NCBI GenBank assembly: GCA_010093815.1
Contig: ML996578.1
DNA from: Pseudovirgaria hyperparasitica
Lineage: Eukaryota
Reading direction: 5' to 3' (one strand)
Length of the DNA stretch: 64,000 nt
Part shown: in pieces, positions 5,134-37,949 of the stretch
Layout: every line of letters begins with the position of its first letter
Numbering within the stretch: position 1 is the first letter of the stretch
Program-made: the position numbers and the translations under genes
Notes under the pieces: model-generated
Databases searched by the model: none
Told to the model about the DNA's origin: nothing
The model's input: the letters and a program-made list of their open reading frames with translations, nothing else

Positions 5134-6477
5134 TTTGGATAAGAATATGTGTGATGGAGGTGATATGGAACGGAATTAGGATCAGGGGCTTCGGAAGGCT
5201 ACAGGTAGAGTTGTAGTTGACGGCTGAACTGAAACGAGACCATGCTAGAAGATGGGAAAGGGGATGTTTTTATATTCTTCAGTATGGTTGGTATATAGCT
5301 CTCACATGTGGAATTTGGGCACATCCCGCATGTGTTGTGATCAGCAACGCGAAGGTAAACATGAGACTTAGCCCTATGAGATGCCAATGTCGATCATGCA
5401 CATGATCATAACATAGGGTCATTAGTAACAAGTTTTCTTTACAATGAAACCAAACGAAAATATAGTGTCTACACCACTGCAAAACTGGCTAAGCACAATC
5501 CTTTCAAGTGACTAGGGTTTGAGCGCTACCCAGAGTGGAGAAATGTAACAAATTGAACATGCTGATGGGGATCGACATTTACCGCTAGGTGTGCCGTACT
5601 AATTCCCCACAGATAGAGTAGTTCATAAGGCGTCTCTCATTAGAGGCATCAATTGGCTGAGAACCATCACGATGCAGAGCGGTTCTGCGGGCCTCGGCAT
5701 GGATGAACACCGCCGATCTCAACATAGATACTAGATTAAAATCACAGCCAGCCATCACGGGAAACGCATCTTCAACCCACAACGATTAAGTCAACATAGG
5801 TGGTATAGCTATGTGCGTGTGTTAGATAGGTATTTGCGGGCAATGATGCGAGACGACTAGAACTAGGATCGTACGAATGTCGAATGCCATGCTTATGGCT
5901 TAGTGCTCGCATTGTACTGTCAGCCTAGCGCTACATACCCTCAAGGTTCGAACTTGACGCACTAAACTCATATATTGATGACATGATCGACAGTGGCAGC
6001 GGTAGATACAGCGCCTGAGTATTGGATGGTCGGTAAACATCCAAGGTTGCTGCTATTATTTACGCAGATAGGCTTCAGGGACATCTACACAAAGCGGAAG
6101 CTCGATCGGTAGTCGGAGGTACGTAGAAACTCACACCCGGTACTGATTTGAAGAGCAAGAGATCAAAAAAACAGAAACAGAAAAACTGCAGGGGTTCTTG
6201 TCATACATAATCGAAAAAAGAAAACTGACCAGTACTAGTTTCAGCAGGAACAATAAGGGAAACAGATATGAGCCAGAAGGCTCGGCGTTGAGGTATCGCA
6301 TACCTTGCTGCCTCGACTGCGGAAGTGCTACCGGCTCCAAGACACGAAATGGATATACCGCTATCTTCAGTCATTCGTGGCTTTTCAGTCTTTTCAGGCT
6401 TTCATTCTTTGTAGGCAGTCATTAGACAGCTTCATCGCGCTTTCACTCTCTTCCAAGCAATATATACGCGCAAAATC

Positions 6478-7679
6478 TCATACGACAGACTTTCCGAGAC
6501 TATCTCTGAAGCCTTCCTGAAGCCAATGGGGTAAGCCCCTCAAGGCCGATGCAAGGGAGAATGCTTCTGGAATGATTAGTTGTCCACTCTTCCCGCTGAT
6601 GATCTGCTTCACTACCGCGTCCGCGGTTGTCTCTGGCTTGAGGATGAACTGCTTGGTTGCAATGAGTGAGTCCTCGAAAGCATTCAGCATCGGTGTCTTT
6701 GTCCAATGCGGATGGACGCAAGTTGTTAGAACTTCGGGCACGCAGTAGCGGTGCTTCAGCTCTTGGCCGAGGCCTAGAAACATTAGAGATAATACAACTA
6801 TAAGTCCCCTATCCAGTAGAGCGGGAGACGATTATGACCACATAGCATGGAGATCTCACCTTCGTGGAATGACAAAGCAGCTGCTTTGGTCGCACAGTAG
6901 TCGACCATGTTCGCTACGGTGATGAAGCCAGCACCGCTTGCGATCGTGACTATATGGCCTTTACGCGCTTTGAGCATGTCCGGTAGGAATGCCTTGACGG
7001 TATAGAAGTGGGCAAGGATGTTTACATCAAATATCCTATGAAGATATTCCTCAGATGTATCTAAGATGGTCTTGTTGCCGCAAATGCCGGCATTGTTGAC
7101 TAAAACAGTCGGTGTTCCAAGTGAATCCTTCACGTTCATAGCAACTTCCATGACTGTCGATTCTTTAGTGATATCACACTGGAAGTACATGATCTGCTTG
7201 TCTACAAAGATTTAGCCTGACCCTTTCGCATCCAGCCCCTTTCATCATGCTTACTTACGGCTTTGGAATCTTGCGGGCAAATCTGAGACGTCCAGAATTA
7301 CGACCTTCACCCCTCTGGTAACCAGTCCATCAACAATCAGCATGCCAATACCCCTGCAGCCGCCAGTAACGATGGCAATCTCTTCATTCCAGACCCAATT
7401 CGTCTTTTTCGTCGACCATTTGGCAAGCGCCCATAGGTTGAAAGCCCAGTTGAGGCCACGGATAATGCCAAGTGCAAAGGCTATCTTCAAGTGATTGACA
7501 AACCTTGTCGAGTTCGCAGTATTCATCAATGGACCTAGAATATCAATGAAACTTGAGCGATATCCGACTGGTGCTTTTGTAAGAAGCCATAGTAAAGGAC
7601 CAGTCAAGACTGGATTCAGAATTATGTTCTTTGCGGCGGACGTGATCCAAGTGCCAGTTCGAGCTGCGGCAATAGACAT
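6478..7679 (-). CDS. Short-chain dehydrogenase/reductase (retinol/17-beta-HSD11-like) with N-terminal membrane anchor; 3 exons
   Basis: TGGCRGIG Rossmann motif, LVNNAGI, and YCATK catalytic motif across three ORF segments separated by short introns. Confidence 0.9.
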
Positions 7680-8292
7680 ATTGATATATCTTGTAGTACT
7701 TACTCTTCGGGGCGAAGGCAAAAGTGCGGGAGGTAGTGATCGATCAATTGAGGTCGGGCGGGGTATTGGGTAGTTATATACACGGTCGTCACACGCATAC
7801 TACGCCACATACTGCGGATAGCACTGTTGCACTCGTACTCGTCTTATGCGTCTATTGGACGGCAGTGACTGTGGTCGGACATTGTGAGAGCTGGTTCGTC
7901 GGACATGGATGGGGGATGCACGATGCACGATGCGCACGGCATTGTGACAATGCGATGCATGGGTGCAGCTGGATCTGCACTTGAAGTCAAATTCAATTAG
8001 TTTTGCATTGTGCCTCATCTATCACACATTGGAGGATGGGCCGGTCCTGCTATGACTGGCTTCTAAAGTTCTTGGTGTCTGCTTGAGCTTGAACCTATTC
8101 AATACTGTAAAGCTGTAAGCACGGCATAGGATATTTTCTCTGCTGCATAGTCATACAGATGATATGGCTCGCCAATGAATCGTGTACACTTGTTGACGGT
8201 GTGATATGGTTGATGTTGATGGGCAGCAGAAATAGCAACGTTATGGCAACAGCAAGCGATGAATAGTGTCCGAGGTCCTGGCGTCGTTTGAG

Positions 8293-8686
8293 GCGGACGA
8301 CATGTGTCAGAGGGCCACATCCGAAAAGTGTAGACATGAAAGCCATATTCCGTTCCCATCACGGATCTTGAGACAACAACTCACTGCTCCCATCTAACAC
8401 TGACTACAGGATTTCTAATAAGATAGAATATTTAGATTCAGCTTGGTTGAGAAGTATAAATTAGCTAAATAGCGTAATAAAGGTTAGCTACTTAGAATAA
8501 ATAAGCTCTAAACTTATCTATAGAGTAGAAGAAAGAGTACTAATAGATAGCGTATATAAATAAAGCAGAAACAAGTAGAGATATACATAGATTAAATGAG
8601 TTCTTATATATCTCTTACTCTAACTGTGTATCCTTATTTTTGCTTTTTAGGTTTGCGTATCTGACCTTCTGACACATGTCGTCCGC
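8293..8686. mobile_element. MITE-like non-autonomous element with terminal inverted repeats and RIP-like interior
   Basis: GCGGACGACATGTGTCAGA (8293-8311) is the exact reverse complement of 8668-8686 and extends with mismatches. The interior (about 8400-8640) is AT-rich and TpA-rich. No TSD identified. Confidence 0.7.
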
Positions 8687-8932
8687 GGTAGTCGCTGTCT
8701 CTCGGTAAAGCGGATCGTCAAAGCAAAGACCAGGTTCTTGTACGTTTGTAGCTCTGACCGACTTACACCAACTCCACGAACCTAAAACCTCTGTATCTCT
8801 ACCTCAAACCAACGCCGCACCTCGTCAGGCTCTGCTCGTGCCTGCAGACAGCTGTACGTTTCGCGCGTGGTCCCGCTCTTGAACCCTTGCGTACATCTTG
8901 CCCGATCCAATCAACGTCACAAGCCAGGCAAA

Positions 8933-9895
<963 letters not shown>

Positions 9896-26958: not shown

Positions 26959-28947
26959 ATGGGCCAAGATCATTCCAGAGATTCTCAACAGCTGTCTCTA
27001 GGTATGTCAATGCTCACATCGTGATTGCGTCCCGCGACGTCGGTATATGCTGACAATGCTCCAGAGCAGCTTTCTTCCAAGTTGACGCAACGCTTCGCAC
27101 AACAGTGCTATACACCGCTAGAGCTCTATTGCTTCAACTCTGTCTTCAAATCCCTTGCAGACTCACAGTCAGGTCTCCACTATTGGAGCGAGTCTACATT
27201 ATGTCGTTTCCTCGAACTACCGGACGCCCTAAACGTAGGACCAGTACTGTTCCAGATGGCTAGTTACATCGGCGCATTTCCCTTCCCTACCCAAGCCCCA
27301 GCAATCTTAACAAATGAGGCACTTCTCAAGGTCGTTACAATATTGACGGAAAGATATGGAGCAGTTTTCAAGAGAAAGAGTCGCAGGATTTGGTTAGGAG
27401 AGATATACAGAAGTATGGCAGTCTACGATCGAGGATTGCAAGCAGCATTACATGGAGAGAAAAAAAATGTAGCAGAAATGTCCTCTACAAATCAGACTGA
27501 GGTCTCAATGATCAAATCAAATGCTGAGAAGCGTGGCTCCAGTTCTACGCATAGTAACGACCTGAAGTTCGCAATAGATAAGACAGAAGACAGCGAAGAT
27601 GTTTCAGAAGACGACGATCTCGTCCTCGCAGCCTTCGATTCTATGGACCTTAACGATACTTTCAAACACGGAGAAGTAGCAAACATCCACCATTCGATTA
27701 TACCGAGCGACAACCTTCTCAAATTACTTGAGCTGCTTCTTCTATCGGCACCGATGGAACCACATGACAATCTATCCACTTTCGCACTACAGCTGTCGGA
27801 CAAGAGAATCGTAGACATTAGAGCCACTGCAAATAGTGTCTTGTCAGCATTTAGCATCGAGAAAAATCCCGGCGTCACATTCAAGCACTTTAATGTCGTG
27901 ATCTCGAGCGCACTTCCGTATTTGTTTGATGGGCTACGGCCCCTATTCGAACATTTCCTTTTTGCAAAAGATTTTGACCTTTCGCGAAAAAAGGGCGAGG
28001 TATCGTCATCTCCACAGTCAAGTTCACAGCACTCAATATCCGTAGACAAAAGGGTCTCCATTCCAGAACCGGTCCTTCAAACCGAAGGTGATATTATGAA
28101 TCTTAGTACGCTCAGCCAACTCTCGTTTATCATTAAGGGAAACAACCTCTTCAGAAGGCTCCGCCTTCTTTATTCAGGCAACACTAATGGGTTCAGCATG
28201 GGCAGCTTCGAAAAGTCAGTCTTTAATTGGCGTGCTCCGTCGATATTGTTGGTTTCAGGGACTCTTCTTGGTGATCCGTTAAGTGCTCGAGAGCGTGCTA
28301 TGCATGATTCTCTGCCGCACAGTCGGCTGAAAAGTAGTCTCACAGAGACGAGCAAGTCAACCTCTACGACGGTCACCTATGGCGCATACATCTCACAGCC
28401 ATGGAAGCAAACCCACAAATCTTGCTTTGGCGACTCTGGTACTGTTCTATTCCAGATCGCTCCGACTCATGACGTCTTCGGGCCGTCTAAGTCTACGTCA
28501 GATTACGTATACTTCAACCGGGCACCTACACATCCTTCCGGTCTGGGTTTTGGCTCATCTATACCGAGCCAAGGTCGTGCCAATATGCATTCATCCAACC
28601 CTGTTCCCATACCTCTTGGGCCAGTCTCGCTGCATCTTGACGATGGTTTAGAGTTCGCGACATTCACGCATCTGAGCGAGGGTGGTGGGTCATTCTATCC
28701 CTCTCAGCTGCCAATCAGGAAGGCCAGAAGCTGGCAGGATCGCTTTGAGGTCGAGTCTCTAGAGGTATGGGGCTGTGGTGGTGACGAGGAGGCGGATGCT
28801 CAAAGAAGACAATGGGCATGGGAAGAACGCGAAGCTGAGGCTCGTAGGAAGATCAATTTAGGAACAGGTGATGTCGAAATGGACAAAGAATTGCTGCGAA
28901 TGGCAGGCCTGATAGGTGCGAACCAGAGCGGAGGCAGTATGGCTTAA
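26959..28947 (+). CDS. rtc5: Restriction of telomere capping protein 5 (TLDc domain); 2 exons
   Basis: N-terminal MGQDHS myristoylation-like start, [14 protein letters not shown], TLDc motifs LLYSG..GFSMGSF and EVWGCG, C-terminal [10 protein letters not shown]. Confidence 0.9.
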
Positions 28948-28961
28948 ATTCATCAGAGCCT

Positions 28962-31900
28962 TTACACGATCTTATATGAAGTATCCCGATCTATCTTATT
29001 GCTTTTCCTACTCAGCCACGCCCTACGTGTCACAATGAACTTCTTTTGAAAGCCTATGATAAGAGCAAGGAGTGTGGTAAATCCTGCTAAAGGGCCTGAT
29101 ATCTTCCAGAAATAGGCAGTCGTCTTTGGGTTGTCTGCATCGCCAGTGATATCCCGCATATTCATCCCGTAATACGACGTCATGAAAGACAACGGAAGCT
29201 AATCAATTACATTAGCAAGCTGCGCAGTGTCAAATGACTAAGCGAACATACGTAAATGGAAGAAAGAATCGTAAATATCATCACCACCCTGCCCTGACGT
29301 GCAGCGGCAACACTGAGGGAGAGAGAGTGTCTCGTCTGCGCACTAGTCTCCTCAGCCTGGACCCATGCAGCGTGTGACTCTCGGAGGTTCGCACGCTTCT
29401 GTCGAAGATCGAGAAGTTGAAGGAGCTATACGTTGTCAGTGAAATCATTCTTGATCAAACTGTCAAAGACGTGTTCACATCTTGCTCAATAGCATCTGCG
29501 TCGGAACGTAAGCCCTGGAACTGCGTCTCAAAGGACGATAGTTTCATCTTAGTTTCCTCCAATATCTCAGTGCCAATAGACAAGTGAAATTCTCCTTCCT
29601 TGTCTTTCATGAGTGCCGTCGACACCTTCTCGACTACGTTTTTTTGAGTCTGAATGATCTCAACTAGGCCTTGCATTTCATCTTTTAGGGTGTTCGCGTC
29701 AAGAACGAGTGATAGCTCAAAATTCTCTTTATTGGTGTCGGCGGTGAAATTGTTTGTGGCCTTCTTCAGGTCTTCATTACGGAAGGATGCTAGTGCAGTC
29801 ATATGCTGTTGGCGCTTGACATGATCGTTAGTAGTGAGAACAGTCTCGGTGGGCAAAATGTGACTTACGAGTTCTCCTACAGCTTTTCGATACAATTGTA
29901 TGAACAGGAGATCGGTGTGGCGTACCCGTGACAACAATGCGGTCGTGGTTCTATCTATGATGAGGGCACATAAGTCATAGACTGAAGACATGACGGTCGA
30001 TGGATGATCAATCCTCGATAGATGGTCCAGGACTGTGGTTTCAACATCAGCTGCTTGTGAGAGCTCAATGTTGTTCGCTTCAAGGGGCTTGCGAGGAAAG
30101 AATGTCACGATCGTCCCTGGGAGAACGTTTAGTAGTCATCAGCAGGCCAAGATTCACTCGTGAAACTCCTAACTCACTGTTATCTGTGATGACCAGCCAC
30201 AGTTGCTGAACTATCAGTGTCTTCATACCAGTGTCAGACATTGCTGTCTGCTTTGGTAGTATCTGGGATGCAAGGCGACTGGACTGCATAGAACTAGTGG
30301 GATATCGGTACTGATCCAGTAGCAACGGGAGGTGTACAGGTGGCTCGGCGGTAATCGACAGACTTGTATGTCTCGTGTCAGGATTTGTTGCAGCATTCCT
30401 ATAAGCCTCTGTAACTTGCTCGGGTGTATCTTCAGATGTTAGGATGTCTATCGCTTGTTGCCGCTGCGTCAGAGACGCGACAGTGTCCCAGTGAAGAAAT
30501 GGCATAACAAGTACCAATCCTTGTTCAGTGGAAGTCGATTCCGTTGGTTGGGTGCGCAATTTGCTGATCGAAGCAAAGTCTGGGCGTATATGCCACGAAC
30601 CCGGATACAGGTTTTCGGTCGAGTGTACATGGTGGGACCAGAAAGCGTCAAAGTGTGTCTTGGAACATATTCCAGATCCGTTCTTCATCAACGAAGACAT
30701 GATATCCTGACATGACTTGTTAATCTGGCTCAAGTAATGAAGTATCATACCTCTAACATACCTCGATCCATATGCCGTGATTGGCACTGCCATGATGCCA
30801 CATGAACTCAACCTCTTGTTTGAGACCAGTTGGCTCGTAAGAGTTCAAGGATGTGCATTGGATATTTGGAAGATCGCTCAAGAGTAGCATACTGGATCGA
30901 ACCTGAGTTTGAACCTCCAGATCACTGTTTCTGCTCTCCAGAGTGAACTTGATCGAATGCGAGGCAATCTTTTGTGGCTCGTGTAAGGGCAACTGAGCTT
31001 CAAGAGCTTTCTCTGACTCTTGTCCGAGTTTGGAGCGTAGTCTATCAGGTATAGTAAGCTGTTGACCACCTTTAAGTAGTAGAAAAGCCCTGTCAATCAT
31101 GAGGCGGAGCTCCTCTTGATTTGAAACAATAGCACTGGAGCTGGAGGTGCAAGAATCGCCTCGAAAATGATATTGAAGCTCATTCGGAGTATCCAGCGAT
31201 ACCTGGGGCCAACTGAATTTCTGCAGCTAGCATTAGAGCCAATCATAAGATTTTAGGGGAAGGCGCTTTGAGCGTACTGAGTCGGGTACCGTGCAACTAA
31301 TCGTAATATACAAATGTGCGATCTTGTTAAACGTGGCTTCATGTTCACAAAGCTTCTTGAATGCCTCAACATTTTCCGTGCAGCTAGTATGTGCAAGATT
31401 CAAGTTCTTCGACAATGCTGTCGACGAGCTCACACGCGTGAGATTGGGAACATCTACATCCCTTCGATCAGTCAATATCATTCTAGGAAGATATATATGG
31501 TACCTATCAATACTATCGCTCTTTTTGCTTTTCTATCAGGTGGTTCCGCAGATAACGCAGCTTTTACGACTAAACCTCCCACTCCGAAGGCCAGAAAAAG
31601 CCATCTGCGATCCTGTAACTAGATAAACAGGTGAGTTGAAGCTTGGTAAACGTGCTGTACAGTCGACTTACCCGCGTGTTTCGCTTCAGCACTTCAGCTA
31701 TCTGATCGAGGAGGGTTTCACGACTCCTCAGGACATCCGACAACTGTTCAGCGGCGTGATCAAATACAAAAATGCTTGCGGATGGGAATCTTTCGTGTAC
31801 AGTATGCACGAATGCGTTTGTGGAAGCTAGTTTCGACTCAGATGCTGGCGCTATGAGCAAGCTGTGTCAAGGAGACCATCAGCAAAGTGCTTCATGAATG

Positions 31901-31986
31901 GTATTTGGCAAATAAAGACAGAAAACCTGGTTTACGTACATAGGCTCTAGGTCGTCCTTCCCTTCCCATCTCCAATCTAGTGACAT
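28962..31986 (-). CDS. Fusion of a degenerate SesB-like alpha/beta-hydrolase domain and a fungal CorA-like membrane domain; about 8 exons
   Basis: N-terminal RWLFLAFGVGGLVVKAAL...AIVLIDVP. Central LVLVMPFLHWDT, LDQYRY, LIVQQLWL, TFFP motifs of fungal CorA-like proteins. C-terminal coiled coil, then TM-LPLSFMTSYYGMN-TM. Confidence 0.75.
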
Positions 31987-32405
31987 GCTCACACAGCGTG
32001 TGCTCAGTACTCAGGTCTCGGGAGACAAACACAGCTAAGTCTGCATCATGTACGGAGAGTGGCTCGTGTTGTGTTTATGAGTTTTAGCGCAAAGGCTGGG
32101 ACAGATTTGGGCCTTTTCCATTGTGGAGGCTTAGCTGTCTGACCACATGCCATGTCCTTAGGTTTTGTAGGTGGCGTTCGTTCACAGCTTGTGCTTATGG
32201 ATGTGTGGGTGTGCAGCTTCTTCATTGCTTGCCTCGTATTGACGGTGGTTATATACAAGGGTAAGGTATTCTATGGCAACTGATGGATCCGCATTCATGC
32301 ATCCTGGTCATATGGCGGCGGGGCGCTCCCCTCGCCCCATAAGTAGGTGAGCAAGCCTCATCCCAACCATCAAGCCTGTCTTGTTCAGCTTTTACAGAAA
32401 CCGTC

Positions 32406-35400
32406 ATGTCTATCGACACGGACTCTAAGTCTGACTCCTCTCCGATCGAACAGGCAAGGCAAGCTGAATTACCTTTGCCTGACATATCATGCCGTCACTG
32501 ACTGAGCTATTCTTTCTCTATCTAGTGAAGGCCTACTATCGCTTACAGTCGACTCAAGAGGATGGAATGCGGTTCGAGACATATGTAGGAAGAGGCTGGA
32601 GCCAGGAGACTTCCAAGTTGTCTCTAACCTGAAATCAATTGAAGAATTGATGAGGTTCGTGGACAGTTTACGTATAAGATACCAAGATACTAGCAAGGCT
32701 TTCGAATTAGCAAGGCTTGATGCATGCTTCTACCAACTGCGGACTTTCCATTCCAGCATTGATGTATTTATCCACATCAAGCCGGCCATATTGGCGCCGC
32801 TGTGGGGCAGCTTAAAACTGTGCATTGATGTACAGCCCTACCTTATATTTATCTGCGCAACTCAAAGACGCTAACACTTGTTAGCTCATACATACCACGG
32901 ATCAGGTTCTTCAATTGATTGTAGATATGTTTGATGAGATAAATCAAACGTTGCCTCGAATAGCTACGTACATGGAGGTGTATAATGAAGCACCGTCACT
33001 ACTGGAGCCGGCACAAGAAAGTAGGACATACTCTAAAATTTACATACAGTTTACCTGACATTACTCCAGTGTATATATTAATTGCGGAATTTGCTTGTCA
33101 GGTTATCTGGTTTTTTCGCCGTAATCCGCTCAGTAAGTTCTCTACCTTGACCTCCTTCGATCATAATTCTGCACATTGGCGCTTACATTGTCTAGAAAAC
33201 CTTTTAGTCACGACCTGGAAGCCGTTCAAGCCTGAACTCGACAAGACAGTGTCGAAGATAAGACAAAAGGGTCGTCAGATCGAGCTCGAAGCTCAAACAC
33301 TCAGTCGGCAACACGATGCTGTCCGCTATGAAGAGCTCAAGCACATTCTCAGTTCCTTAGAAGTCAAAAATCGCGTCACGCTACCATGCCACTATCTACC
33401 TCTGGCACGGAATCCTACTCTTGTCGGTCGAAATGATCTCCTAGATGCTGCCCATAATCACCTATGCTCCGCTCTTGACGAACAACGTATTGTTTCTTTC
33501 TACGGCTTAGGTGGGGTCGGAAAGACCCAGATCAGCATTGAATATGTATATCGGTACCTGGATGGCTACTCAGCCGTTTTCTGGCTCTCAGCAGATTCGG
33601 TAGTCAAGATGAGCCAAGATGTCCGAGGAGCCCTTGAGAAATTGGGAGCAATCAAGTCTAATGGGCCGGAAAATGACCAGCAGTGCCAGAACATATTCAG
33701 TAATTGGCTCAAAGATACTGGTTAGTGTTACTCCGACGTTTCCTACCACTGCTGATATTTTATCAGAAGAGAAATGGCTTATCGTTTTCGATAATGCTGA
33801 TGATCTGAAGGTTCTTCAAGGATATTGGCCTACTTCACGTCGTGGTCATATCATCCTTACCAGTAGAGACCCGGCCTCAGCAAGGTTTCCAACAAACAGT
33901 AAAGCACTCAGAGGTCTCCAAGTCCTGCCATTATCCGACGCCGTAGGAGCAGATATGCTTCTCGGTGTACTGTCTCACAAGCAAGACCCTTCTGATGAAA
34001 ATCACCAAGTTCATACCATGAACGACATCGAAATCGCAAAGGATCTTGTAGCGCAGCTTGGGGGCCTCCCTTTAGCAATCATACAGATTGCTAATTACAT
34101 CTTGGAAGCAGAATGCGAACTTGACGAGTTTAGCGAAATATTCTCCGACTTCCGCAATCGCAGCTCGCTTTTAGATGAGGATGCCAGCAATACAAACATG
34201 TCTTACCCTCATTCTCTTGGTACAGTTTGGGATATCTCGATGACTAGGATCGAAAAGTCAAACAAGAACTCTTTTCACATGATACAGATAATGTCGTTCT
34301 TTGATCCGGATGGTATACCCGAAACTCTTCTCGATAATTCTGATGTGCAGCGACCCGGCGATGCGTTACCGGCCTTAAAGTATCTCCAGAGCAAGTTGCT
34401 GTTCCTCAACGCAACTCGTCCTCTCTTGCAGCAGTCTATGATCAATAAGAACAAAGTGCAGCGATCACTAGTGATGCATCGCTTAGTGGGTGCAATCACA
34501 CACAAGAATATCACACACGCCGATAGACAGACGAGATTTGATGAAGCATTAGAACTTCTTTATCGAGTATACCCCCAGTTAACATTACAAAAGGCATCTT
34601 TGAACGAACAATGGCCTCGTTGTCGTCTATATGTGCCACAAGTCCTGGCTCTGGAAAGATCATATAGAGAATCTCAGGAACCCCTAAAACCCAGGGCAAA
34701 ATTTGCTACAGTTCTATCAAATGCGGCATGGTTTCTTTACGAGAACGGTTTGCCCGGTCAGGCAATGCAAATACTTCCAACCGCAAAGGCAGTGGCAGAA
34801 GCTACTCTGAAAGGTAACGAATTTGCTGCAGTTACCATATACAGGACATATGGTGGTATCCATATTGACGCAAACAAACCACAAATATCTTTAGAGATGT
34901 GGACTCGCCAAATGAACATAATGAAGGAAATAGGCTCCGAGCTTTCGGTTGCTCATGGCTTGAGCAACATGGCCTTGGCAGAACTTGCCATTGGTAATTA
35001 CGATGACTCCAGACGTGAGCTAAACAAGGCCACCGAGATTCGCTCTAAATATCCTGGACAGGCGGAAAGCTACAAAGCCTTGACGCTGGATGTCGAAGGC
35101 ATGCTAGATAATGCTCAAGGAAAGTATCAGTCTGCCATCAACAACCTTTCAGCTGCCATCAAGCTGTATGATGAGGAGCTAGGAGTGGGGAACTACTTGA
35201 CTGCGTTGTAAGTGCTAACTCCAGTAAGTATCGTGAAAAGCTCTAATAAAACAGCGCCAACCACACTCTGGGCAACGTGTATGAGCGAATGGGCCACTTG
35301 GAAGAAGCATTTCGGCTCCATTCTTTATCTTTATCTGTCCGAGAGGATATCCTTGGCGAGACTTATCGAACTGCAGGATCATTACACAAGGTCGCATGGC

Positions 35401-35727
35401 ATCTTCATATGCGAGATGACCATGTTGGCGCGGAGTATGTTTTACACCACATCCGATAAAGCTCCGTGACCTTCACATCTAAACTCTCATAGGAGGCTGC
35501 TTTACAAAGCGTTGAAGATATACGCGTCGGCTTACGAAGGTAAAGGTGGTATTGGTAGATCAAGCTATCTGATGAGTTTAGTTTTAGCTCAGCTTGGGAA
35601 GGAGGAGGATGCCATAAACACGAAGGCACTGGCAGAGAAGATACGAGAGGAGCTCAGTGGCATTCCTCCAGGCCATGATGATAATCTCAAATCATACGAC
35701 AACCTTGTCGGTATGCAAGACCGGTGA
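32406..35727 (+). CDS. Fungal NLR: helical N-terminal domain (Goodbye-like) + NB-ARC + TPR; multi-exon
   Basis: DVFIHIKPAILAPLWGSLKL N-domain, LVGR, GLGGVGKT (Walker A), WLIVFDNADD (Walker B), ILTSRD, LGGLPLAI, MHRLV, then TPR-like helices ending SYDNLV. Confidence 0.9.
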
Positions 35728-36603: not shown

Positions 36604-36871
36604 AGACATGTTCTTGGTGTGCATAGGCGAGAATCATGCGATATATCGGGAGAGCGCATAGATACAGCCAGCACTTGCGATACCAATTCACTAGCTACCA
36701 ATCCAGATTCGCATTGACATTTCCAGAATCTACTTCTCTATCCGTGACATTGTCCTACTCAACCTCCCGGCTGCAAGACTAAGAATTCAGTGAAACCAAT
36801 TCGCAGTCCAGTCCAGAGATGCAAACAAGTACACCTCGCGCTCACAATAACGGATTTTTATCCCACCCAGT

Positions 36872-37949
36872 CATGACCAACGCAACACTTTCCTTCATCT
36901 CCGATCTCCCTTTGTATACCAATGTCAAACCGTATGCCATATCGACAGACACACAAGTCCCAGAGGAAGCACGTTCGAATATCAAATTCGAAGAGCGAAG
37001 CACTATCCCCATAACCGATGTCAGGACATTGCCACATGATAATCTATCATACTCGCAGCAAGGGTTCCGGTTTTTCGCACACCCGTCGTCGGCAACGTAT
37101 GAGTTCGGGTTTGATGACGCCTCTGTTGCAACGTACTGCAGAAAACTTGTGGAACTGGTCAGAAAGGAATTCATGACTGAACATGTGTTTTGCTACGATC
37201 TGAAGGTAACATCAGTAGCGTTAGCTGTAGACAAATTATTTTTTGACGCTCCGAAGGTTCGTGATAGTGAAACAAAGACGACTGAATATGGTGCTAGCAC
37301 TGATCTCAGCGCTGGCAATATTGCACCGCCGGTCTATGGTGTTCATATTGGTGCGTATGCGACGGACAGCATGACAGTGTAGCTAGATGCTGAAGTCCCA
37401 CTGTTACAGACCACACCGAAACTTCAGGACCACAACGCATACGTCGGCATTTGACGAATGTCGAAGTCGAGCGGTTCTTGAATGGTGGGTTCCGAGCACG
37501 CATTGTGAAGTAAGCGGACTGAGATGCCGGTGTGCTCAGTTGAAATGCTCACATGGCCAGTGTCTGGCGACCTCTCTATCGGCAGGTTGAAACGTGTCCT
37601 CTTGCATTGTGTGATGCAAGCTCTGTTCCAGCAAGCGATTTGCTCGCAGCAGATATGGTAACGTCAAATTATGTCTTCGACCTCTATTACACAAAATATA
37701 GTGCCAACCATAAGTGGTACTGGTTAAGTTTCCAGACCCCTGAGGAAGTTGCCGTCTTCGTACAGTACGACTCTAATGAACCGAGAGAGTCAGATACAGT
37801 ATCAAGTAAGTGTTGCTGGAATACCTAAATGTCATATTTCTGACAAAGCAGCGTGTCCCCACGCCGCGATTCGACAAAGGGACAGTGGCACCTGTGGTAC
37901 GAAACGCGAGAGTGTGGATGCAAGGCTCATCGTTTTCACACTCGAATGA
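36872..37949 (+). CDS. AsaB/CmcJ-like (GA4-desaturase family) Fe(II)/2-oxoglutarate hydroxylase/desaturase; multi-exon (alternative ATG at 36819)
   Basis: PLY..VKPY, ITDVR, QGF, VHI|D (HxD), VWRPL, PLALCD, HKWYWLS.QTPEEV, CPHAA, RESVDAR. Confidence 0.85.

What the first reader, a model, noticed from the sequence alone, without database searches (positions are those of the whole stretch)
28962..31986. Pseudo-enzyme architecture: SesB-like hydrolase lacking its nucleophile, fused to a CorA-like domain with intact GMN
Seen after splicing (not visible in the ORF track): DRRWLFLAFGVGGLVVKAAL...RAIVLIDVP around 31450-31612. This parallels the SesB-like consensus RPIIFIAHSLGGLVVKxAL...GIIFLGTP, but the nucleophile-elbow His-Ser is replaced by Phe-Gly. 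The C-terminus keeps TM-YYGMN-TM. Known: fungal CorA-like proteins of this type often carry ankyrin or other N-terminal modules, and plant EDS1-family lipase-like folds act non-catalytically downstream of NLRs. Inference: the dead hydrolase is a ligand- or protein-binding gate for the channel.
Basis: partly seen in the sequence, partly recalled or inferred. Interest (0 to 1): 0.7.

Follow-up and report, generated by a model that had tools for sequence, protein, structure and literature searches.

The report
Fungal dead hydrolase–magnesium-channel fusion
A spliced fungal gene joins a lipase-like domain that has lost its catalytic residues to a magnesium-channel-type pore and sits head-to-head with an immune-type receptor gene; the fusion is common in sac fungi, seems undescribed, and may be a gated ion channel of fungal non-self signalling.

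Summary
The gene (minus strand, 28962-31986) has 10 exons and encodes 836 aa. Spliced contigs from one sample carry the hydrolase and CorA exons in one piece. Residues 10-228 have an alpha/beta-hydrolase fold of DUF676/SesB type; residues 257-811 have the CorA fold with intact GMN. The nucleophile Ser is Gly and the catalytic His is absent.

The fusion is not peculiar to this genome. It is an ascomycete family (35 of 152 hits carry the hydrolase) that I did not find described in print. Most members keep the Ser (19 of 29). It changed state 3-5 times, nearly always to Gly. In this gene's clade the dead domain is as conserved, relative to the channel, as in Ser-bearing pairs, so it is kept rather than decaying.

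An intact, spliced NB-ARC-TPR NLR starts 419 bp away, head-to-head, and a second NLR/CorA neighbourhood exists in the genome. Three other hydrolase-CorA genes showed no NLR neighbour.

Best reading (0.42): a regulated cation channel with a non-catalytic input domain, acting in NLR/non-self signalling. Gating, transport and the NLR link are untested.

The parts
28962..31986 (-). Gene for the pseudo-hydrolase/CorA-like fusion protein: 10 exons, 836 aa
   Evidence: Open frame with 9 GT-AG introns; introns 2-9 joined in one contig in X1 and in X2; P0001 identical over 815 aa
31067..31959 (-). SesB/DUF676-like alpha/beta-hydrolase domain, residues 10-228 (exons 1-5), catalytically degenerate
   Evidence: ESM Atlas TM 0.78 to an ascomycete DUF676 cluster; VIA-align Z 12-14 to solved hydrolases; local profile E 1.2e-8; no Pfam hit by sequence alone
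31574..31591 (-). Nucleophile elbow A-F-G-V-G-G; Gly91 (31585-31583) stands where relatives have Ser
   Evidence: Alignments; coordinates
31446..31507 (-). I-D-V-P (split by intron 3): Asp118 in place of the small residue of the family's F-G/A-T/V-P-H motif; Asp is shared by P0004 and P0153
31152..31154 (-). Ser199: position of the family's conserved His if aligned without a gap (MAFFT puts a 3-residue gap here; no His either way)
   Evidence: clade members P0165 (Ser) and P0005 (Pro) align without gaps to the His of P0009
29040..30980 (-). CorA-like module, residues 257-811: alpha/beta cytosolic domain, long stalk helix, two membrane helices
   Evidence: Foldseek E 3e-7 and VIA-align Z 17.4 to T. 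maritima CorA; Pfam CorA E 2.6e-10 over 716-805; model pLDDT mostly above 85 here
29297..29338 (-). 14-residue (two-heptad) extension of the stalk helix just before TM1, against the commonest family length
   Evidence: lengths fall in steps of 7 in the family and 17 of 82 measured hits share this length
29160..29168 (-). GMN selectivity-filter motif (residues 769-771)
   Evidence: Aligned to T. maritima CorA G312-M313-N314; coordinates
31987..32405 (.). 419-bp interval between the two start codons: putative bidirectional promoter and 5' UTRs
   Evidence: Start codons at 31986 (-) and 32406 (+); the two genes lie on separate spliced contigs. Promoter function is inferred.
32406..35727 (+). Divergently transcribed NLR gene, 8 exons (first intron GC-AG), 978 aa: N-terminal helical domain (weak DUF7708 hit), NB-ARC, DUF7779, TPRs
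   Evidence: Pfam on exon frames: NB-ARC E 7e-4 and 1.5e-3, DUF7779 E 1.7e-18, TPR_12 E 9.5e-12, DUF7708 only E 0.15; 7 joints seen; open frame

Best explanation
The protein is a subunit of a CorA-type oligomeric (by family rule pentameric) divalent-cation channel with a GMN filter. Its N-terminal SesB-like domain descends from an active serine hydrolase. In this clade it has become a non-catalytic input domain, and the fold is kept because it binds something (a lipid or small molecule in the old substrate cleft, or a protein). That binding controls opening of the pore. The channel most likely serves fungal non-self or NLR signalling, with the head-to-head NB-ARC-TPR gene as the likely upstream sensor in this genome, giving ion flux, membrane depolarisation or cell death on activation. 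Shown: gene structure, joint splicing, both folds, loss of Ser and His, family breadth, recurrent Ser loss, NLR neighbour. Inferred: pentamer and cation conduction (family knowledge), binding and gating by the dead domain, and the NLR link.
For: Folds. One spliced contig. The Ser position is Gly in all 3 clade members whose elbow is in the record (P0001, P0004 Diplodia, P0153 Elasticomyces), with a shared Asp at 118. Hydrolase identity P0001/P0153 is 29% at 36% CorA identity; Ser/Ser pairs at 32-40% CorA identity have median 30% (16 pairs, range 28-34%). P0001/P0004: 43 of 145 in the hydrolase against 153 of 379 in the cytosolic domain. Across the family Ser changes state 5 times at least on the quick tree, 3 forced by strong branches; 9 of 10 non-Ser elbows are Gly. 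So catalysis is dispensable while the fold is kept. SesB-like domains are a main N-terminal domain of fungal NLRs (PMC4986451, passages). The same CorA-like module carries ankyrin or NACHT-type (NPHP3_N)-ankyrin N-termini in other hits. NLR-CorA fusions are rows in supplementary tables (PMC12258605 S3 and S10; PMC4986451 file 6). A second NB-ARC-DUF7779 gene lies directly upstream of another CorA-like gene in this genome, against about 0.02 expected among 9 NB-ARC loci or 0.09 among 38 NLR-type loci (rough, gene number assumed). A CorA-like gene is linked to vegetative incompatibility in Morchella by bulk segregant mapping (PMC8940278, section 15 and passages). A divergent CorA is a ligand-binding immune effector in type III CRISPR (PMC10600005, passages).
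Against: No NLR was found beside 3 of 3 other hydrolase-CorA genes with flanking DNA (L005/L006 one gene, L008, L009). None of these is of this clade, and L009 has only 2.6 kb upstream. Of 13 other CorA matches in this genome, 12 have no NLR-type match within 49 kb. No flanking DNA was obtained for the clade's orthologues, so conservation of the head-to-head pair is unknown. The constraint comparison rests on two pairs. The Morchella link is linkage only, strains with the same allele still formed barrages, and whether that protein has a hydrolase domain was not tested. No transport, binding or cell-death data exist for any member that I could find.
Confidence: 0.42

Rival explanations
1. A regulated Mg2+/divalent-cation channel for homeostasis or development. 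The pseudo-hydrolase senses a lipid or metabolite, or only scaffolds the channel, and the NLR is a chance neighbour in an accessory-gene slot.
For: GMN is intact here and reads GMN, GIN or GVN in 30 of 34 hydrolase-bearing hits. No NLR beside 3 other hydrolase-CorA genes. Papers read CorA expansions in ascomycetes as Mg transport (PMC3897900, PMC10694956; passages), without tests on this subfamily.
Against: The genome has other CorA-family loci, the best at E 1e-38, likely the housekeeping transporters. The interchangeable N-terminal modules (SesB-like, ankyrin, NACHT-type) are NLR parts. Two NB-ARC/CorA neighbourhoods occur in one genome.
Confidence: 0.28
2. The hydrolase domain is a relic kept for folding or spacing only, with no binding or gating role.
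For: It is the least confident part of the model (pLDDT 44-61 in blocks between residues 111 and 210). It is shorter than active relatives, has lost Ser, His and the Glu of the family's FYET strand, and sits on long branches.
Against: Relative conservation equals that of Ser-bearing pairs. It is retained across several Dothideomycete genera with shared derived residues. Many family members do without it or carry other modules, so the channel does not need it to fold (inference).
Confidence: 0.14
3. Guard or decoy arrangement: the dead hydrolase is bait mimicking active SesB-type targets of an antagonist, and the neighbouring NLR monitors it, or the fusion protein restrains the NLR, rather than acting downstream of it.
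For: Head-to-head sensor/helper pairs sharing a promoter are known in plants, and 13 head-to-head NLR pairs are listed for Sordariales (PMC12258605, passages). The NLR has its own N-terminal domain.
Against: An intact GMN pore is not needed for a decoy. No sign of rapid diversification was tested or seen.
Confidence: 0.11
4. The domain is still an enzyme with a rebuilt active site, for example using the clade's conserved Asp118.
For: Asp118 is shared by 3 of 3 clade members with that region.
Against: Asp118 follows the strand after the elbow, not the elbow. The elbow residue is Gly, and His is absent in P0001, P0005 and P0165.
Confidence: 0.05

Closest known systems
CorA/Mrs2/Alr1/ZntB metal-ion-transporter superfamily (Pfam PF01544; T. 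maritima CorA 5jrw, 3jcf)
   Same: Cytosolic alpha/beta domain, long stalk, two membrane helices, GMN; pore-helix residues align (L294/F751, T295/T752, P303/P760, T305/S762).
   Different: About 10% identity, some 200 extra residues in the cytosolic part, a stalk lengthened by heptads, and an N-terminal hydrolase-fold domain that none of the listed solved CorA structures has.
SesB-like (DUF676/PGAP1/SERAC1-type) alpha/beta-hydrolase domains of fungal NLRs
   Same: Fold, elbow context and strand order; relatives in the family hit DUF676 over its cut-off.
   Different: Fused to a channel, not to NACHT/NB-ARC; Ser, His and the FYET Glu are lost. The 2 SesB-like elbows read beside NACHT-type domains in this genome keep the Ser.
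Unnamed ascomycete DUF676-CorA proteins (ESM Atlas clusters of 147 and 100 members; UniRef 'DUF676 domain-containing protein')
   Same: Same two-domain architecture; top feature match 0.95.
   Different: Most keep Ser and all aligned members outside this clade keep His. This clade is about 300 aa shorter, lacks the long low-complexity linker and is fully degenerate. The trees do not settle whether the fusion arose once or twice.
Fungal ankyrin-CorA and NLR-CorA fusions (rows in supplements of PMC12258605 and PMC4986451)
   Same: Homologous CorA-like module with immune-type N-terminal parts.
   Different: Here the NLR is a separate, divergent gene and the fused module is a hydrolase fold.
Non-enzymatic alpha/beta-hydrolase folds (NDRG, neuroligins; PMC7022630 passages; EDS1 family and GID1 recalled)
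   Same: Triad replaced by non-reactive residues while the fold is kept for interactions.
   Different: Independent origin from another hydrolase family; none is fused to an ion channel as far as I recall.
CRISPR type III CorA effector (SAM-AMP; PMC10600005)
   Same: Divergent CorA with a large N-terminal soluble part acting in immunity, sometimes fused to a hydrolytic enzyme (NrN).
   Different: Prokaryotic, different N-terminal fold, nucleotide messenger known; no messenger or synthase is known here.

Membership tests
CorA superfamily | CorA fold: alpha/beta cytosolic domain plus long stalk helix | tested here: met
   VIA-align Z 17.4 (rmsd 19.6 over 321, stalk angle differs) to 5jrw; Z 16.0, rmsd 3.8 over 252 to the E. 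coli cytosolic domain 5n77; Foldseek E 3e-7
CorA superfamily | Two C-terminal membrane helices with GMN between them | tested here: met
   Pfam CorA 40.5 bits over cut-off 27, residues 716-805; model helices 668-769 and 785-813. TM2 stayed under a hydropathy threshold of 1.6.
CorA superfamily | Pentamer | not testable with these tools
CorA superfamily | Mg2+/divalent-cation transport | not testable with these tools
   Needs complementation or electrophysiology
CorA superfamily | Cytosolic Mg2+ sensor sites (M1/M2 acids of T. maritima CorA, recalled) | not tested
   No residue-level structural alignment was returned
SesB-like/DUF676 alpha/beta-hydrolase | Alpha/beta-hydrolase fold | tested here: met
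SesB-like/DUF676 alpha/beta-hydrolase | Sequence homology to DUF676-type domains | tested here: met
   Indirect: no Pfam hit for P0001 itself, but E 1.2e-8 to a profile of relatives, 9 of which pass the DUF676 cut-off; Atlas features 0.92
Active serine hydrolase | Nucleophile Ser at the elbow | tested here: not met
   Gly91
Active serine hydrolase | Catalytic His after the last strand | tested here: not met
   Ser or a gap at that column; His194 lies at the end of the strand itself
Active serine hydrolase | Catalytic acid | tested here: inconclusive
   The family's conserved Glu (FYET strand) is absent, but that it is the catalytic acid is my inference
EDS1/PAD4/SAG101 family | Lipase-3-like domain fused to an EP domain (recalled) | tested here: not met
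   The C-terminal part is CorA-like; the resemblance is functional analogy only
Fungal NLR-effector gene pair (NWD2/HET-S type, recalled) | Adjacent NLR and effector genes, both intact and spliced | tested here: met
Fungal NLR-effector gene pair (NWD2/HET-S type, recalled) | Adjacency conserved across genomes | tested here: inconclusive
   0 of 3 distant hydrolase-CorA genes have an NLR neighbour; no flanks for close orthologues; one further NLR/CorA neighbourhood in this genome
Fungal NLR-effector gene pair (NWD2/HET-S type, recalled) | Shared amyloid signalling motif | not tested
   No motif search was run; neither protein has an evident free N/Q-rich terminus by eye

The most novel reading that the evidence does not exclude
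Ascomycetes have an undescribed class of immune ion channels: CorA-type pores gated by interchangeable N-terminal modules (SesB-like hydrolase, ankyrin, whole NLRs). In the hydrolase-fused branch the enzyme has repeatedly turned into a receptor, and here the fully dead domain is the docking or ligand-sensing site through which the head-to-head NLR opens the pore. This would be a fungal parallel both to CRISPR-associated CorA effectors and to the non-catalytic lipase-like relay downstream of plant NLRs.
Probability: 0.3. Interest if true: 0.88.

Novelty: new variant of a known kind. Interest (0 to 1): 0.6.

Why it matters
[quoted passage not shown] This family joins the two in one chain and supplies natural active-site-intact and dead versions. 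That makes it directly testable whether a SesB-like domain works by catalysis or by binding, and whether a CorA pore is an output of fungal non-self signalling. If the NLR link fails, it is still an undescribed enzyme-fold-regulated CorA channel family.

Tried and rejected
Pfam on single exon frames and on P0001 found no hydrolase family; PDB sequence search gave only weak CorA hits (E 0.2). Three word-seeded protein searches returned only 2, 2 and 5 proteins; the family came from the HMMER search (only the best 150 of 1060 hits were available). A predicted complex of residues 10-230 with 245-715 gave no verdict (score 0.00, alignment not used) and is not used either way. No run was on record as RNA. 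The extra 3' intron of P0001 was rejected because the contigs cover that stretch without a joint. A hetero-oligomer with an active paralogue was considered: the own-genome search found only this gene and no SesB-like match near a CorA match, but these searches are lower bounds (they missed this window's own CorA and NB-ARC exons). A baseline for Ser loss in NLR-fused SesB domains gave only 2 readable elbows, too few to compare rates. The careful tree did not finish; quick trees were used and no monophyly test was run. The one close metagenome locus (L002, 1.4 kb) has no flanks. Literature: no paper describing the hydrolase-CorA fusion in searches (open-access library only; 'cora' hits were mostly 'coral'). 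Supplements: 5 of 17 files of PMC12258605 and 1 file of PMC4986451 were not searched, and bioRxiv supplements are closed; rows on SesB-CorA proteins could stand there.

Full report
1. The gene is real. The window is intron-rich fungal DNA. On the minus strand, ten exons from 31986 to 28962 with nine GT-AG introns give one frame of 836 aa. Two public runs, X1 and X2 (one sample; library not on record), each have a single contig that skips introns 2-9, so the 5' exons and the CorA exons are in one spliced piece. Intron 1 is inferred from a 78-base depth deficit. The database protein P0001 is the same for 815 aa and differs only by a 3' intron that the contigs do not show.

2. Two folds. Pfam sees only CorA (E 2.6e-10, residues 716-805). 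An AlphaFold model from a 70-sequence alignment (mean pLDDT 82, pTM 0.71) matches T. maritima CorA over 257-811 (Z 17.4) and cytosolic CorA/ZntB domains at rmsd 3.6-3.8, and dozens of alpha/beta-hydrolases over 1-228 (Z 12-14). The ESM Atlas places residues 10-235 with DUF676-type hydrolases by features (0.92) and by structure (TM 0.78). The pore helix aligns with T. maritima CorA through GMN.

3. The hydrolase is dead. The elbow is A-F-G91-V-G-G where most relatives have H-S-x-G-G. The next strand ends in I-D-V-P for F-G-T-P-H. The conserved Glu of the FYET strand is gone. The His column holds Ser or a gap; clade members P0165 (Ser) and P0005 (Pro) align there without gaps to the His of P0009. 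P0004 has a His one or two places off, so its state is unsure.

4. It belongs to a family. HMMER found 1060 representatives at E up to 0.001; I could use the best 150. A profile seeded on 18 Ser-bearing hits marks a hydrolase domain in 35 of 152 proteins at E under 1e-6, P0001 included. Named members come from Aspergillus, Xylariaceae, Agyrium, Lentithecium, Saccharata and others. The Atlas holds DUF676+CorA clusters of 147 and 100 ascomycete members. Other hits carry ankyrin or NACHT-type (NPHP3_N)-ankyrin N-termini on the same CorA-like module. Of 29 proteins whose elbow is in the record, 19 have Ser, 9 Gly and 1 Asn; nine more hydrolase-bearing models lack that stretch and were not counted. 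On a quick tree of the CorA module the label needs 5 changes, 3 forced by strong branches. The seven non-Ser members outside this clade keep the His. Metagenome loci add one Gly gene (L005/L006) and two Ser genes (L008, L009). Ser-to-Gly as the usual fold-keeping change in non-enzymatic hydrolases is recalled; PMC7022630 (passages) confirms only that such non-enzymatic folds exist and act in protein interactions.

5. This gene's clade. P0001, P0004 (Diplodia), P0153 (Elasticomyces), P0008 (Mytilinidion) and four unnamed fragments form a clade (SH-aLRT 100, long stem). All three with a visible elbow have Gly and the Asp at 118. Their hydrolase domains are similar beyond shuffles (scores 111 and 112 against maxima of 54 and 65 in 300 shuffles). 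Hydrolase identity of P0001/P0153 is 29% at 36% CorA identity, inside the range of 16 Ser/Ser pairs at that distance (28-34%); P0001/P0004 gives 30% against 40%. So there is no sign of faster decay, on two pairs. The clade also has a 14-residue longer stalk, a length shared by 17 of 82 measured hits.

6. Surroundings. On one side lies a convergent TLDc gene. On the other, 419 bp away and head-to-head, is an intact 978-aa NB-ARC-DUF7779-TPR NLR, spliced in the same runs. I saw this before consulting earlier findings. In the same genome another NB-ARC-DUF7779 gene with a TPR-like tail lies directly upstream of a different CorA-like gene on contig C7; chance expectation is roughly 0.02-0.09. Against a fixed pairing: 12 of the 13 other CorA matches have no NLR-type match within 49 kb, three distant hydrolase-CorA genes show no NLR neighbour, and no flanks were available for close orthologues.

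7. How it likely works. By family rule the C-terminal part forms a pentameric divalent-cation pore. The N-terminal module is exchangeable across the family and is drawn from the NLR parts list (SesB-like domains are about a fifth of annotated N-terminal domains; PMC4986451, passages). Repeated loss of the nucleophile with retention of the fold says that catalysis is not the domain's only job. I take it as an input domain that controls the pore, most likely in non-self signalling with the neighbouring NLR upstream (0.42). Supporting context: NLR-CorA fusions are rows in supplementary tables; a CorA-like gene is linked to vegetative incompatibility in Morchella, by mapping only (PMC8940278; section 15 and passages); a CorA effector binds SAM-AMP in type III CRISPR (PMC10600005, passages). 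Rivals: homeostatic channel with a chance neighbour (0.28), relic domain (0.14), guard or decoy (0.11), rebuilt enzyme (0.05). Binding, gating, conduction and the NLR link are all inferred.

8. Novelty. Both domains are known and the fusion sits unnamed in databases. Nine searches of the open-access library found no paper on the hydrolase-CorA fusion or its pseudo-enzyme forms. PMC12258605 and PMC12881547 were read as passages, PMC3897900 and PMC10694956 as passages, PMC4945025 and PMC9815663 as listings only. It is a member of the CorA superfamily by fold and motif, is not an active serine hydrolase, and is not an EDS1-family protein. Verdict: a new variant of known kinds, interest 0.6; 0.88 if the NLR-gated channel reading proves true (probability 0.3).

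Noticed in passing
L057:5400-8882 (+) and L058:454-1368 (+); G000 contig C7 near 1.453-1.458 Mb: A second NB-ARC-DUF7779 NLR-type gene directly upstream of, and co-oriented with, a CorA-like GMN gene of another subfamily.
   Followed up: partly
L012:4416-5022 (-) and 6099-9563 (+): A SesB-like hydrolase gene with intact Ser lies head-to-head with an ankyrin-CorA gene: the same two modules as separate neighbours.
   Followed up: partly
L027:3244-4833 and L028:6550-8214 (+): A HET-domain gene lies just upstream of a CorA-like gene; L025 has a protein kinase gene about 2.6 kb upstream of one.
   Followed up: no
window 29297-29338 and family: The stalk before TM1 varies in steps of seven residues across the family (25, 32, 39, 46, 60 in 80 of 82 measured hits), suggesting a kept coiled-coil register with variable pore length.
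   Followed up: partly
window 32459-32525 (+): The NLR's first intron is GC-AG.
   Followed up: yes
window 27025-28947 (+): The convergent TLDc-domain gene ends 15 bp from this gene's stop codon; one contig runs across both, so their 3' ends overlap.
   Followed up: no
window 36783-37382 (+) and L057:5443-5876 (+): Both NLR genes of this genome that neighbour CorA-like genes have, on their other side, a frame that looks by eye like the same kind of small oxidoreductase-like protein; Pfam gave no hit for the window's frame and the likeness was not tested.
   Followed up: no
P0055: NACHT-type (NPHP3_N)-ankyrin protein with a C-terminal match to the same CorA-like module: an NLR-channel fusion among the hits.
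   Followed up: no
G000 contig C47:2090 (+) and C47:23575 (-): Two NPHP3_N matches with the same score and frame length in opposite orientation, 21 kb apart: a possible inverted duplication.
   Followed up: no
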